Position numbers and translations under genes: made by a program. The notes under the pieces were generated by a model. The model was given only the letters and a program-made list of their open reading frames with translations. It did not search any database and was not told the origin of the DNA. This document shows positions 5,356 through 9,006 of a stretch of DNA of 34,732 bases, piece by piece. Each line of letters starts with the position of its first letter. The stretch's first letter is position 1. This stretch comes from an uncultured virus (IMG/VR IMGVR_UViG_2847556114_000004). Taxonomy: Duplodnaviria > Heunggongvirae > Uroviricota > Caudoviricetes. Location of the stretch: the IMG/VR virus record IMGVR_UViG_2847556114_000004, one strand, 5' to 3'.

Positions 5356-5489
5356 CATTTGAATCCTATTTTGCCGATCACCTCCGCGTTCGTTGGCAAC
5401 GATTGCGCTTATATCACTTTCCCGGCTCTGTGCTGACGGACTACCGAATACTGAAGAACTACATCAAAACCATAGGCGGTGCTGTATGA
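5352..5489 (+). CDS. ylcG: YlcG family small protein (absent from the ORF track)
   Basis: 45 aa MTFESYFADHLRVRWQRLRLYHFPGSVLTDYRILKNYIKTIGGAV; ATGA overlaps with ninG and Q. Confidence 0.8.
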   Translation: MTFESYFADHLRVRWQRLRLYHFPGSVLTDYRILKNYIKTIGGAV

Positions 5490-6175
5490 ACACTCAATTT
5501 CTCGAATACGTGCGCCAGCAGCTGATAGTGGCCACCGCCGACCTGAGTGGTGCGACGAAGGGGCAGTTAATGGCCTGGCTTGAGAACGCGCAGTTCGATA
5601 CCGGTACCTTTAAGCGGAAGAAGATGAAGGTGAAGGATGAGGTTACTGGCGAGATGATAACTCTGGATAACCCGCCAATCCCAGGTAAACAGTCGCATGC
5701 CAAGGGATCGCATATTCCGCTGGTGCAGCCGGTTGAATACTCCACTGCATCGTGGCGCCGTGCACTGATGACGCTCGAAGAACACCAGAAGGCCTGGCTG
5801 CTATGGAACTACAGCGAGAATGTGCGCTGGGATAATCAGGTGTTGATTACTCAGTGGGCGTGGTCGAAATTCTGCGAGCATCTGGCCGGAAAAAAGGTGG
5901 CGAAGAAGACCATTGACCGGTTGCGTCAGCTAATTTGGCTAGCTGCTCAGGATGTGAAAGGCGAGTTATCCGGGAAGGATCCGTATCAGTATGGCGATCT
6001 GGCTGCGTTGGTGGGCGTTAACAAAACAAACTGGTCTCAGAATTACGTGGAACATTACGATGCGATGATCAGCCTGTATAAGGGACTCGATTCCCAGTCA
6101 CTACATCATGTTTCGCGATCACGTTCACAACAAAAGGCAGCAAATTATCAGCAAGGTATTGCAGAAATGAATTAA
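5486..6175 (+). CDS. Q: Late antitermination protein Q (phage 82-type)
   Basis: LEYVRQQLIVATADLSGATKGQL, LIWLAAQDVK and an HTH near the C-terminus; followed by a pR'/tR'-like unit. Confidence 0.88.
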   Translation: MNTQFLEYVRQQLIVATADLSGATKGQLMAWLENAQFDTGTFKRKKMKVKDEVTGEMITLDNPPIPGKQSHAKGSHIPLVQPVEYSTASWRRALMTLEEHQKAWLLWNYSENVRWDNQVLITQWAWSKFCEHLAGKKVAKKTIDRLRQLIWLAAQDVKGELSGKDPYQYGDLAALVGVNKTNWSQNYVEHYDAMISLYKGLDSQSLHHVSRSRSQQKAANYQQGIAEMN

Positions 6176-6187
6176 TTAGCATATATT
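6159..6187 (+). promoter_or_regulatory. Late promoter pR'
   Basis: TTGCAG (6159)-17 bp-TATATT (6182) overlapping the Q stop codon, the canonical position. Confidence 0.7.
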
Positions 6188-6244
6188 TCGTGTAAATCTG
6201 ATATTGTGCCATTGTTGTATGCACTGGCAGTAAATGAGTTTTCG

Positions 6245-6271
6245 AGCCCGAGGTTAGCGCCTTGGGCTTTT
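6245..6271 (+). terminator. tR' late terminator
   Basis: AGCCCGAGG-TTAGCG-CCTTGGGCT-TTT about 60 nt downstream of pR'. Confidence 0.75.
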
Positions 6272-6290
6272 GCGTTTCTGGAGGATGGCA

Positions 6291-7223: not shown

Positions 7224-7689
7224 ACTTATTGCGGCAATGGGCGGCGGTGCTATCGCTATTGCCACCGTCATGCTGTCCGGTAAGGATGGACTGGAGGGGC
7301 GCGAATACGTTGCTTATCGCGATGTGGTCGACGTTCTCACGGTCTGCGATGGCCACACTGGTTCCGATATTATCCCCGGCAAACGCTACACCGATAAAGA
7401 GTGTGATGCGCTGACCCGAGCAGATTTGACCAGGATTGCCCGACAAGTCGATCCGCATATCCGGGTGCCGGTTAGCGAAACTCAGCGCGCCGCTATCTAC
7501 TCGTTCGCCTATAACGTCGGCGCTACCGCCACCATCAATTCCACGCTACTGAAAAAGCTCAACGCCAAAGACTACGGTGGCGCATGTGCTGAGCTTAAAC
7601 GCTGGGTGTATGCAGGCGGCCAGAAGTGGAAAGGGTTGATGAACCGGCGCGACGTTGAATATGAAGTCTGCACATGGAGCCAGAAATGA
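7201..7689 (+). CDS. SAR endolysin (GH24 lysozyme)
   Basis: Gly/Ala-rich N-terminal SAR helix; catalytic E-X8-D-X5-T (EGREYVAYRDVVDVLT); FAYNVG and GLMNRR motifs. Confidence 0.95.
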   Translation: MSPALRSKLIAAMGGGAIAIATVMLSGKDGLEGREYVAYRDVVDVLTVCDGHTGSDIIPGKRYTDKECDALTRADLTRIARQVDPHIRVPVSETQRAAIYSFAYNVGATATINSTLLKKLNAKDYGGACAELKRWVYAGGQKWKGLMNRRDVEYEVCTWSQK

Positions 7690-8078
7690 CACCACTGTTT
7701 AAAGTGCTGCTCATCGTGTTCGTGGCATCCCTGGCTGGTGGCTTGGTCTGGTCCGCAAATCATTACAGCAGCAAATACCATACCGAGAAGAGGCGTGCTG
7801 ATGATGCTGAGCAGTCGGCAACCAGTGCCGTGACCATCACCGATAACGTCCTGCGCACCATCAAAATCACCAACATCGTTCTGGAGACCAACCAGCATGC
7901 CAAACAGCAGATCGCACTGGAGTCACAGAGAGCTCAGGCAGACATCAAAGTGGCTGTTGCGAGCGATGACTGCGCTCGTCGGACTGTGCCTGCTGGCGCT
8001 GCTGACAGGTTGCGGCAATACGCGGACAGTTTACGTACCGGTTCCGGCGGTGCCACTCCCGGCAAACCTGACTACTGA
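7686..8078 (+). CDS. Rz: Inner-membrane spanin (Rz-like)
   Basis: N-terminal TM, coiled coil, DDCARRTVPA Cys; follows the endolysin. Confidence 0.85.
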   Translation: MTPLFKVLLIVFVASLAGGLVWSANHYSSKYHTEKRRADDAEQSATSAVTITDNVLRTIKITNIVLETNQHAKQQIALESQRAQADIKVAVASDDCARRTVPAGAADRLRQYADSLRTGSGGATPGKPDY

Positions 8079-8220
8079 AACGCCACAGCCAGCCATTCCC
8101 GACCCGCTGACCTACGGGGCCAGTCTGGATCTGAATGTGAATCTACTTTCGGCGCTGGGTCAGTGTAACATCGACAAGGCCAGCATCAGGGAACTCGAAA
8201 CATCACGATCCGCGCAATAA
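7966..8220 (+). CDS. Rz1: Outer-membrane spanin lipoprotein (Rz1-like, overlapping type)
   Basis: ATG 7966; lipobox LLTGC; Pro-rich segment; LLSALGQCNIDKASIR; overlaps the 3' end of Rz in another frame. Confidence 0.85.
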   Translation: MTALVGLCLLALLTGCGNTRTVYVPVPAVPLPANLTTETPQPAIPDPLTYGASLDLNVNLLSALGQCNIDKASIRELETSRSAQ

Positions 8221-8297
8221 CGGGGCCACTAAGCGAGCGAGTATTGACTATTGAGCAAATGAACAATATAAGTAAGACATGCTGTCACATTAGCATC

Positions 8298-8327
8298 CGC
8301 TCTTAAAATCTCGCTCTGAAAAAGAGC
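8298..8327 (+). promoter_or_regulatory. Lambda-type nut site (boxA + boxB)
   Basis: CGCTCTTA (8298-8305, lambda boxA), 7-nt spacer, GCTCT-GAAAA-AGAGC (8313-8327). Lambda nutR boxB is GCCCT-GAAAA-AGGGC, so the difference is one compensatory C-G to T-A pair. Confidence 0.7.
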
Positions 8328-8333
8328 AGCACC

Positions 8334-8361
8334 AAGCCTCGCCATCGTGCGGGGCTTTTTT
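8334..8361 (+). terminator. Intrinsic terminator directly after the nut-like site
   Basis: AAGCCTCGC-CATCGT-GCGGGGCTT-TTTT. Confidence 0.8.
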
Positions 8362-8884
8362 GTATCCGAATTTCACCGCTGTAGCAAACAACGATCCGGT
8401 TACCGATTCTTTTATGGTGGCAAAAGCATTCGGCAAGTTATCCAAAAACGTAGTCCGCGATATTGAAAGGACTATTGATGCTTGCCCTCGAGAGTTTGAT
8501 ACAAAGCTCAACTTTGAGCTTTGCTATAAAAACAATAAGTTACAGAATGGTAAGCCGCAGAAGTTCTAACGTCTCCGCAAGGATGGGTTAATGCTTCTTG
8601 TGATGTCTTATACCAAGAAGGAAGCCATGCGTATCAAAATCGCATACATCAACGCTTTCAACTGGATGTACGCAATGCTTCAGATTGGCCAGCGCCAGTT
8701 CGAGGAAGAGCGAAACGCGGTCATGCTTGAGTTCATGAAAGAGAAAGACGTGGCGAGTATGTCCGGTCGTCTGCTCAATCGCTGGGGAAGGGTGAAAAAG
8801 CCTATTTTGCTTGCGAAGATCGAACGACTTGAAAAGCAGGGGCAGATACCACTGCCGGGATTTGCCAAAGCAATTACTGAATAG
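8360..8884 (+). pseudogene. rha: Rha-family regulator, disrupted by an in-frame TAA and lacking a clear start
   Basis: ORFs 8360-8569 and 8591-8884 share a frame: PVTDSFMVAKAFGK..KNVVRDIE...NGKPQKF*RLRKDGLMLLVMSYT..A..IKIAYINAFN (Rha motifs), TAA at 8567-8569. No ATG or RBS at the 5' end. Confidence 0.8.
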
Positions 8885-8885
8885 G

Positions 8886-8909
8886 GGCCGCCACTGAGCG
8901 GTCTTTTTT
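8886..8909 (+). terminator. Intrinsic terminator after rha
   Basis: GGCCGC-CACTGA-GCGGTC-TTTTTT. Confidence 0.7.
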
Positions 8910-9006
8910 ATGTCCATTACAAAGCTCATCTGCGGGTGGGCTTGATAATGGAACTCTCTGCTGATAATGATATGACTCCAGTATTAACTATGGAGTTGTG
9001 GTGATT

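What the first reader, a model, noticed from the sequence alone, without database searches (positions are those of the whole stretch)
8244..8884. Lambda-type nut site in the late region: promoter-boxA-boxB-terminator-rha, a possible N-sensing switch or nut decoy RNA
Seen: after Rz1 there is a candidate promoter (TTGACT 8244, 17 bp, TATAAG 8267), then lambda boxA CGCTCTTA (8298), a boxB hairpin GCTCT-GAAAA-AGAGC (8313-8327), a strong terminator 6 nt later (8334-8361), then rha. The boxB differs from lambda nutR by a compensatory pair, which argues for selection on RNA structure. Known: nut sites normally lie in early pL/pR transcripts and bind N (or HK022 Nun) with Nus factors, whereas late transcription depends on Q. 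Inference: the unit may make an ~85-nt nut RNA that titrates N/NusB-NusE of superinfecting lambdoid phages. Alternatively it may be an N-triggered readthrough switch that turns on downstream cargo (rha and later morons) only when an N protein appears. Either would be an RNA-based phage-sensing module. I do not know of a description of this arrangement but cannot check the literature.
Basis: partly seen in the sequence, partly recalled or inferred. Interest (0 to 1): 0.8.

Follow-up and report, generated by a model that had tools for sequence, protein, structure and literature searches.

The report
Orphan lambda-type nut gate before rha
A small portable DNA cassette after the phage lysis genes carries a genuine lambda-style anti-termination (nut) signal wedged between a promoter-like site and a terminator, probably a gate that opens a downstream regulator gene only when a lambda-type N protein is present, although in this prophage that regulator gene is already broken.

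Summary
The nut pattern occurs once in the window and in 0 of 100 shuffles.

It is a portable cassette of about 135 bp. I found 12 near-identical copies (family F1) and 6 copies of a diverged second family (F2) with the same layout. Between families, boxB keeps 13 of 15 bases and the two changes form one compensatory pair. The spacer keeps 1 of 7 and the linker 4 of 11. The boxB meets the lambda-N rules: GNRNA loop, closing U-A and a stable stem. It closely matches a canonical nutR in another enterobacterial prophage that encodes a lambda-like N.

Every copy but the window's runs into a shared leader. Where I looked further, a Rha or KilA-N regulator gene follows. Only 1 of 10 carrier records encodes a lambda-type N with its own nutL and nutR.

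Best reading, about 0.45: an N-gated promoter-nut-terminator switch. Decoy or sRNA, relic and booster-nut readings remain open.

In the window, rha is dead, through a 5' deletion and an in-frame TAA. The -10 lacks the conserved final T, and no transcript data could be had. I found no such cassette in print or in 50,697 phage records.

The parts
7674..8220 (+). Context: Rz-like (7674-8078) and overlapping Rz1-like (7897-8220) spanin genes, the end of the lysis cassette.
   Evidence: PHROGs phrog_214 and phrog_456.
8244..8249 (+). -35-like hexamer TTGACT.
   Evidence: Read. TTGACT is invariant in 12 of 12 F1 copies, and TTGA is also kept in F2. In L004 and L006 homology to the other copies begins 2 nt upstream of it.
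8267..8272 (+). -10-like hexamer TATAAG, 17 bp after the -35. It lacks the conserved final T.
   Evidence: Read. It reads TATAAA in 10 of 12 F1 copies and TATAAG in 2, TAAATA in F2 and TAAAAC in L149. The consensus scan does not list it.
8279..8296 (+). Predicted 5' hairpin of the short RNA (6 pairs: 8279-8284 with 8291-8296). The transcription start near 8279 is inferred.
   Evidence: Folds.
8298..8305 (+). boxA, CGCTCTTA.
   Evidence: Read. It aligns with the boxA of lambda nutL and nutR and of G293 nutR. It is single-stranded in the fold.
8313..8327 (+). boxB hairpin GCUCU-GAAAA-AGAGC, of lambda-N type.
   Evidence: The GNRNA loop, closing U-A and stem-stability rules come from passages of PMC12027372.
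8334..8361 (+). Intrinsic terminator: 9-pair stem, 6-nt loop and six T. It starts 6 nt after boxB.
   Evidence: Related terminators stand at the same place in phages ES18 (annotated 'terminator') and Sf101.
8362..8379 (+). First 18 nt of the shared rha leader. The sequence shared with the other 11 F1 copies ends at 8379.
8380..8884 (+). rha remnant. Homology to Sf101 rha starts at about codon 17. An in-frame TAA lies at 8567-8569. The ORF11CD3 domain in the second piece is intact.
8883..8912 (+). Second intrinsic terminator, after the rha remnant.

Best explanation
The element is a self-contained, horizontally mobile gate made of a promoter, a nut site and a terminator. It sits in front of the leader of a Rha or KilA-N regulator gene.

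How it would work. A sigma-70-type promoter (inferred) makes a transcript of about 85 nt. That transcript carries a 5' hairpin, boxA and a lambda-N-type boxB. It stops at an intrinsic terminator 6 nt after boxB, so in a quiet lysogen only the short RNA is made. When a lambda-specificity N protein is in the cell, it binds boxB and, with the Nus factors at boxA, makes RNA polymerase ignore the terminator. The leader, the regulator gene and whatever lies beyond are then transcribed.

Where N would come from. It could be the phage's own N, as in provirus G407, which also has canonical nutL and nutR. In most carriers, which lack N, it would have to come from a co-resident or superinfecting lambdoid phage.

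Shown here: the nut identity, the cassette's architecture, its conservation in two diverged families, and its link to the leader and cargo. Inferred: promoter activity, N binding and readthrough.

In the window itself the gate is intact but its first cargo gene, rha, is dead.
For: 1. Nut identity.
- boxA is 8 of 8, with a 7-nt spacer (8-9 nt in lambda and G293).
- boxB has a GNRNA loop, a closing U-A and a 5-bp stem.
- The sequence is nearly that of the canonical nutR just after cro in G293. That prophage encodes a lambda-like N and a nutL-type boxB.
- Across 8 nut sites, 40 of 40 stem cells pair, and pair 3 reads CG:3, UA:3, GC:2.

2. It is a conserved unit.
- There are 12 F1 copies and 6 F2 copies with the same order of parts.
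- Between the family consensuses, boxB keeps 13 of 15 bases and the 2 changes form one compensatory pair. The spacer keeps 1 of 7 and the linker 4 of 11. This is the pattern expected for a protein-recognised hairpin.
- The top pair of the terminator switches from C-G to G-C.

3. Link to cargo.
- 11 of 12 F1 copies and all 6 F2 copies run into the same leader.
- An ORF starts about 215 nt after boxA in 10 F1 loci.
- Pfam gives Phage_pRha for L004 and L030 and KilA-N for L028 and L021. PHROGs gives Rha for G005.

4. The left border of homology in L004 and L006 lies 2 nt before the -35, so the promoter-like site travels with the unit.

5. G407 has an N whose first 20 residues match lambda N at 18 of 20. 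It also has nutL- and nutR-type boxBs in addition to the late copy.

6. Precedent for extra nut sites: phage mEp021 uses three (passages of PMC11893012).
Against: - The -10 lacks the final T in every copy (TATAAG, TATAAA, TAAATA, TAAAAC), and the consensus scan does not list the promoter.
- No transcript data could be obtained.
- Nine of 10 carrier records show no lambda-type N homolog and no second boxB. Six of those nine are only 36-87% complete. Two complete carriers also have no arginine-rich N-like ORF. In most hosts the gate would therefore have no resident key.
- Four F1 copies, including the one in N-bearing G407, have a GGAAA loop. This fits GNRNA, but its function is untested.
- Q-modified late transcription would pass the terminator anyway, so the cargo does not strictly need this gate.
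- In the window the cargo is a pseudogene.
Confidence: 0.45

Rival explanations
1. The product is the short RNA itself. In this reading an RNA of about 85 nt, made constitutively, acts in trans. It could be a decoy that soaks up N or NusB-NusE of incoming lambda-type phages. It could instead be a base-pairing small RNA, like other short terminated prophage leaders.
For: - The architecture, a promoter placed tightly against a terminator, is that of a small-RNA gene. The RNA has a stable fold and a U-tail.
- Most carriers lack N, so the nut cannot serve the phage's own antitermination.
- The window keeps the cassette intact although its cargo is dead.
- Short terminated late-promoter transcripts can be regulators: StxS (abstract of PMC7547250) and IsrJ (passages of PMC7067206).
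- From memory, not checked here: Friedman and colleagues (1990) showed that over-made boxA transcripts compete for a host factor and block lambda growth.
Against: - The single-stranded stretches that a base-pairing seed would need are the least conserved parts between F1 and F2: spacer 1 of 7, linker 4 of 11.
- The unit is always joined to the same leader, and to a Rha or KilA-N gene wherever that was examined. A free-standing RNA gene has no need of this.
- A -10 without its final T argues against the high output that titration would require.
- No expression data exist.
Confidence: 0.22
2. Hitch-hiking relic. An early-region nut fragment was once captured next to the terminator-leader-rha cassette. 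It now spreads with that cassette by recombination among lambdoid phages and does nothing in most carriers.
For: - F1 copies are nearly identical, so their conservation may only reflect recent spread.
- The cassette is rare. It was found in 1 of 401 family genomes, in 7 of 50 rha upstream regions, and in none of the phage records.
- Most carriers lack N.
- Other inserts occupy the same spot in other phages.
Against: - Two families that have diverged strongly elsewhere keep the same order of parts, the full boxB loop and upper stem, and compensatory stem changes.
- No decayed copy was seen among the 18.
Confidence: 0.18
3. A booster nut with no promoter of its own. The site would be read only as part of long transcripts coming from upstream. 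It would re-load N on polymerase before the terminator, like the third nut site of mEp021.
For: - The promoter is imperfect.
- G407 has its own N.
- mEp021 has an additional nut site inside an operon.
Against: - Nine of 10 carrier records show no N.
- The -35 and the first bases of the -10 are kept at a 17-bp spacing in both families. The L004/L006 junction keeps the -35.
- From general knowledge: N-modified polymerase from the early right promoter is already terminator-resistant.
Confidence: 0.08

Closest known systems
Lambda nutL and nutR (N-utilisation sites), and the canonical nutR of the G293 prophage
   Same: boxA CGCUCUUA, a short spacer, and a 15-nt boxB with a GNRNA pentaloop and a closing U-A. 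The spacer and stem are almost identical to G293 nutR.
   Different: - It lies in the late region, after Rz/Rz1.
- It has its own promoter-like site about 20 nt upstream.
- An intrinsic terminator follows only 6 nt downstream.
- It precedes a Rha or KilA-N gene.
- Nine of 10 carrier records show no N gene.
Short terminated transcripts of the Q-dependent late promoter (lambda 6S RNA, StxS; the Rfam families isrJ and STnc100 sit at that place in related proviruses)
   Same: A promoter followed at once by a terminator, so that a short RNA is made until an antiterminator arrives. The terminator sequence is nearly identical to that of an isrJ copy. The short RNA may itself be a regulator (PMC7547250, abstract).
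   Different: - The signal is an RNA nut site for N, not a DNA site for Q.
- It lies after the lysis genes, not between Q and the lysis genes.
- It scores 24.3 bits against the isrJ cut-off of 37.
- G003 carries a true isrJ as well as the cassette.
Third nut site (nutR2) of the mEp021 group of phages
   Same: A nut site beyond the canonical two (passages of PMC11893012).
   Different: There the site lies within an early operon of a phage that has its own N-like Gp17. No dedicated promoter or terminator is described in the passages I read.
HK022 Nun exclusion of lambda
   Same: A prophage exploits the N-boxB specificity of another phage (abstracts of PMC4124055 and PMC5386594).
   Different: Nun is a protein that binds the invader's nut RNA. 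Here the resident carries the nut RNA and the invader would bring the protein. No Nun-like arginine-rich ORF was seen in G003 or G005.

Membership tests
Lambda-type nut site | boxA close to CGCUCUUA, single-stranded, 5' of boxB | tested here: met
   CGCTCTTA at 8298-8305. It is unpaired in the fold and aligns with the lambda and G293 boxA. Variants are TGCTCTTA in L026 and CGTTC(A/T)TTA in F2. G407 nutR also has CGTTCTTA.
Lambda-type nut site | boxB: 5-bp stem, GNRNA pentaloop, closing U-A pair | tested here: met
   GCUCU-GAAAA-AGAGC. The rules are taken from passages of PMC12027372. 40 of 40 and 65 of 65 stem cells pair. The loop is GAAAA in 14 of 18 copies and GGAAA in 4.
Lambda-type nut site | Lies in an early (pL or pR) transcript of a phage that encodes the cognate N | tested here: not met
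   It lies after Rz1 in the late region. A cognate N and canonical nut sites were found in 1 of 10 carrier records. The window's own early region is off-window and the assembly is not held. Its nearest relative, G001, shows no lambda-type N.
Lambda-type nut site | N- and Nus-dependent antitermination | not testable with these tools
   This needs reporter or in vitro transcription assays.
isrJ (Rfam RF01393) | Score at or above the gathering cut-off of 37 bits | tested here: not met
   24.3 bits, E = 0.011. The match rests on the terminator and a weak 5' part. There was no Rfam hit at gathering level in the whole window.
Q-dependent late promoter leader (pR'-tR' type) | Lies directly downstream of the Q gene and upstream of the lysis genes | tested here: not met
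   Q is at 5393-6175, with a terminator at 6244-6269. The cassette lies after the lysis genes. It occurs with three different Q families.
Base-pairing (Hfq-type) small RNA | Intrinsic terminator with a U-tail, plus a conserved single-stranded seed | tested here: inconclusive
   The U-tail is present. The single-stranded spacer and linker are the least conserved parts between families, at 1 of 7 and 4 of 11. Hfq binding cannot be tested here.

The most novel reading that the evidence does not exclude
In prophages that have no N of their own, the cassette is an RNA-based sensor of foreign lambda-type phages. The invader's or a neighbour's N protein opens the resident's promoter-nut-terminator gate and switches on a Rha or KilA-N regulator. 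That regulator either blocks the invader or wakes the resident prophage so that it escapes with it. This would be a defence or eavesdropping trigger built on the specificity of transcription antitermination.
Probability: 0.25. Interest if true: 0.85.

Novelty: new variant of a known kind. Interest (0 to 1): 0.6.

Why it matters
Nut sites are textbook elements of the early operons of phages that encode N. Here a lambda-specificity nut has its own promoter-like site and terminator, moves as a cassette and sits before an antirepressor-like gene. Most of the prophages that carry it lack N.

If the gate works, it shows that antitermination signals can be re-used as portable switches. It also shows that one phage's N protein can be read by another prophage. 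That gives a directly testable route to cross-talk, exclusion or piggy-back induction among co-resident lambdoid phages. The tests are simple: reporter fusions with and without N, and plating assays.

Tried and rejected
- Rfam at gathering level on the window gave 0 hits. At E-value level only isrJ appeared, below its cut-off.
- blastn of 8221-8380 against the phage records and against E. coli genomes matched only the terminator part. blastn of the F2 cassette against the phage records matched only the leader and rha.
- The window's own assembly is not held. The nearest genome G001 and provirus G002 lack the region. The window's early region, and with it the question of whether this prophage has N, could not be examined. 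G001's related prophage shows no lambda-type N or nut, but mosaicism makes this a weak hint.
- Expression: the look-up of sequencing runs returned only contig-level runs. The four RNA-labelled metagenome runs I laid hold relatives' Rz/Rz1 and an unrelated terminator, and none covers the cassette. This says nothing either way about transcription.
- The metagenome pattern scan gave only 2 loci.
- MAFFT on the full-length cassettes misaligned the F2 boxB (A6). I re-aligned from boxA onward (A7). The F2 terminator 3' arm is offset by one column in A7, so I read the terminator pairs by eye and did not count them.
- An arginine-rich ORF scan of G003 and G005 found no N- or Nun-like candidate at the early-left position.
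- Earlier findings of this scan: nothing by sequence or by words.
- The paper by Cocozaki and colleagues (2008) on P22 and lambda boxB overlap is not held. Whether P22-type N proteins could also open this gate is therefore left open.
- L030's 44-kb contig could not be searched for N.
- Literature searches for a late-region nut, a nut decoy or a Rha-nut link found no such description. This holds only for the library searched.

Full report
WHAT IS THERE

The window is a lambdoid prophage. PHROGs identifies a DnaC-like loader (3-737), NinB, NinG, a Q-like antiterminator (5393-6175), a holin, an endolysin, an Rz-like spanin (7674-8078), an Rz1-like spanin (7897-8220), Rha-family fragments, and then the small and large terminase subunits.

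- TTGACT at 8244-8249, a 17-bp spacer, and TATAAG at 8267-8272.
- boxA CGCTCTTA at 8298-8305.
- boxB GCTCT-GAAAA-AGAGC at 8313-8327.
- A 9-pair terminator stem at 8334-8357, ending in six T at 8356-8361.

A loose boxA-spacer-boxB pattern hits once in the window and in 0 of 100 shuffles. The predicted 86-nt RNA folds into a 5' hairpin, a free boxA, the boxB hairpin and the terminator, with z = -3.0.

IT IS A PORTABLE CASSETTE

blastn against 50,697 phage records and against the complete E. coli genomes matched only the terminator part. A related terminator stands at the same place, between Rz1 and rha, in phage ES18, where it is annotated as such, and in Sf101. Neither has a boxA or boxB.

Pattern scans of the viral, genome and metagenome collections found the whole unit in 11 further loci. 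One lies in a Citrobacter portucalensis genome. I call these 12 copies F1.

F1 copies are nearly identical from just upstream of the -35 to 18 nt past the terminator, while the left flanks differ. In L004 and L006 homology starts 2 nt before the -35. The loop is GAAAA in 8 copies and GGAAA in 4. One copy has TGCTCTTA as its boxA.

The unit is rare. It was found whole in 1 of 401 genomes sampled from the family.

A SECOND, DIVERGED FAMILY

I fetched 55 loci that encode relatives of the Rha protein downstream of one copy. I read the upstream regions of the 50 that had enough sequence.
- Three carry F1.
- Four carry a clearly diverged version, F2.
- Forty-three carry neither.

A further pattern scan added two more F2 copies, giving six in all.

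F2 has the same order of parts:
- TTGAAA, 17 bp, TAAATA.
- A boxA-like CGTTC(A/T)TTA.
- A boxB of UCUCU-GAAAA-AGAGA.
- A terminator with a different top pair.
- The same leader.

Between the two family consensuses the conservation by segment is as follows:

| Segment | Bases kept | Note |
|---|---|---|
| boxB | 13 of 15 | The two changes are one compensatory pair, G-C to U-A; 65 of 65 cells pair |
| boxA | 6 of 10 | |
| Spacer | 1 of 7 | |
| Linker | 4 of 11 | |

This is the conservation pattern expected of a hairpin read by a protein at its loop and upper stem. It is not the pattern expected of a base-pairing seed. It rests on one evolutionary split, so it is suggestive rather than statistical.

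IT IS A TRUE LAMBDA-TYPE NUT

One family genome, G293, matched only the boxA-boxB part. There the sequence lies directly after a cro-like gene and before a cII-like gene, next to a cI-like repressor. This is the canonical nutR position.

The same prophage encodes an N-like protein with a lambda-like arginine-rich start. It also has a nutL-type boxB with a GCGCU stem.

I aligned the late copies with lambda nutL and nutR (fetched) and with the nut sites of G293 and G407. boxA, spacing and boxB correspond. Pair 3 of the stem reads C-G, U-A or G-C, and all 40 cells pair.

Passages of a 2025 mutational-profiling preprint state that lambda N prefers a GNRNA pentaloop, needs the closing U-A with U as the key base, and follows stem stability. 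The second loop base had a minor effect (PMC12027372). Both GAAAA and GGAAA copies meet these rules.

WHO CARRIES IT, AND WITH WHAT

Downstream:
- 11 of 12 F1 copies and all 6 F2 copies continue into one shared leader, also present in ES18 and Sf101.
- In 10 F1 loci an ORF starts about 215 nt after boxA.
- Where I scanned the cargo, it is Phage_pRha with or without ORF11CD3 (L004, L030, G005) or KilA-N (L028, L021).
- The other F1 cargos were judged only by their N-terminal sequences.
- L029's contig ends within the leader.
- The cargo of L147 and L149 was not examined.

Upstream:
- Spanin genes are family-verified in the window and in G005 only.

N genes in the carriers:

| Record | Completeness | Lambda-type N homolog | Other boxB hairpin |
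|---|---|---|---|
| G003, G004, G005 | 98-100% | none | none |
| G407 | 100% | yes; first 20 residues match lambda N at 18 of 20 | nutL- and nutR-type boxBs |
| G408-G413 | 36-87% | none | none |

Further points:
- G003 and G005 have no further boxA-plus-hairpin site and no arginine-rich ORF at the early-left position.
- The Citrobacter genome has only this one boxB and no N homolog.
- Lambda-type N homologs occur in 22 of 401 genomes of the family, so such phages do circulate there.

THE WINDOW'S COPY

The cassette itself is intact. The shared leader, however, stops at 8379. Homology to Sf101 rha resumes at 8380, at about codon 17. The leader, the ribosome site and the start codon are therefore gone. 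An in-frame TAA at 8567-8569 stands where Sf101 has TAC.

rha is thus a pseudogene. A second terminator follows at 8883-8906. Beyond it lie small ORFs, one with a DUF1413 match, and then the terminase genes.

The window's early region is not in the window, and the assembly is not held. G001, the nearest genome, has a prophage similar to the window over the replication-to-Q region. It shows no lambda-type N or nut.

WEAK POINTS

- The promoter is only predicted. Its -10 lacks the conserved final T in every copy, and the tool's scan does not list it. In its favour, TTGA and TA-A are kept at 17-bp spacing in both families, F2 has an A-rich tract upstream, and the L004/L006 junction preserves the -35.
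- No usable RNA data exist.
- The F1 copies are too alike to be independent witnesses.

HOW IT MOST LIKELY WORKS

A promoter set tightly against a terminator, with an antitermination signal between them, is the logic of lambda's own regulated units. Here it is compressed and made portable. The best reading (0.45) is therefore an N-gated switch for the Rha or KilA-N gene and whatever follows it. It would use the phage's own N in G407-type phages. In the many carriers without N it could be opened only by another phage's N.

The rivals are:
- The short RNA as the product, either a decoy or a small RNA (0.22).
- A hitch-hiking relic (0.18).
- A promoter-less booster nut (0.08).

The remainder is left for readings not thought of.

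COMPARISON WITH WHAT IS KNOWN

The element works like a nut site but fails the positional part of membership: an early operon and a cognate N in the same phage.

It resembles the short terminated leaders of Q-dependent late promoters. The Rfam families isrJ and STnc100 sit at that place in G001, G003 and G005. It is not one of them, at 24.3 against 37 bits.

Phage mEp021 shows that a third nut site can exist.

I found no description of a late-region promoter-nut-terminator cassette, of a nut decoy RNA, or of a Rha-nut link in five full-text searches. No copy exists in the deposited phage records searched.

VERDICT

It is a new variant of a known kind. Its function is unproven but directly testable. 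Interest 0.6.

Noticed in passing
window 8360-8884: rha is a pseudogene. The leader, start codon and about 16 codons are deleted (junction 8379/8380). An in-frame TAA at 8567-8569 stands where Sf101 has TAC. Both pieces fall below the Pfam Phage_pRha cut-off, while the ORF11CD3 domain is intact.
   Followed up: yes
window 6176-6290; L062 (G001), L015:7843-7918 (G003), L012:9751-9963 (G005): The Rfam small-RNA families isrJ and STnc100 lie between the Q gene and the lysis genes in related proviruses. They look like short terminated late-promoter transcripts. The window has a terminator at 6244-6269 at the matching place but no Rfam hit.
   Followed up: partly
L012:18342-18920 (G005) and L015:16900-17380 (G003): Downstream of the cI-like repressor, where N would sit, both proviruses have several hundred bases of GC-rich sequence. 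It looks structured and has no convincing ORF or PHROG match. It might be an RNA-based antitermination element of the HK022 put kind. This was not tested.
   Followed up: no
window 8242-8275 compared with L141:70-105 (lambda late promoter): The cassette's promoter-like region resembles the lambda late promoter around the -35 (TATTGACT then ATTGA). The likeness is weak and may be chance.
   Followed up: no
L005 (G005), downstream of the cassette: The rha gene of this provirus is interrupted by a 425-aa transposase gene. The rha tail resumes beyond it.
   Followed up: partly
L004 and L026 (two provirus contigs with the same IMG genome number): One source genome seems to carry two cassette copies in different proviruses. 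One has a GAAAA loop and CGCTCTTA. The other has a GGAAA loop and TGCTCTTA.
   Followed up: no
window 8334-8361; L061 (G153 isrJ): Nearly the same terminator sequence serves both an isrJ copy and the site after Rz1. This is why Rfam gives a sub-threshold isrJ hit.
   Followed up: partly
L082-L084, L089, L092-L094, L114 (upstream of the terminator-leader-rha cassette): The spot just before the terminator is a variable insertion site. Other phages carry unrelated inserts there, including a TATAAT-containing promoter-like stretch and a second tandem terminator.
   Followed up: no
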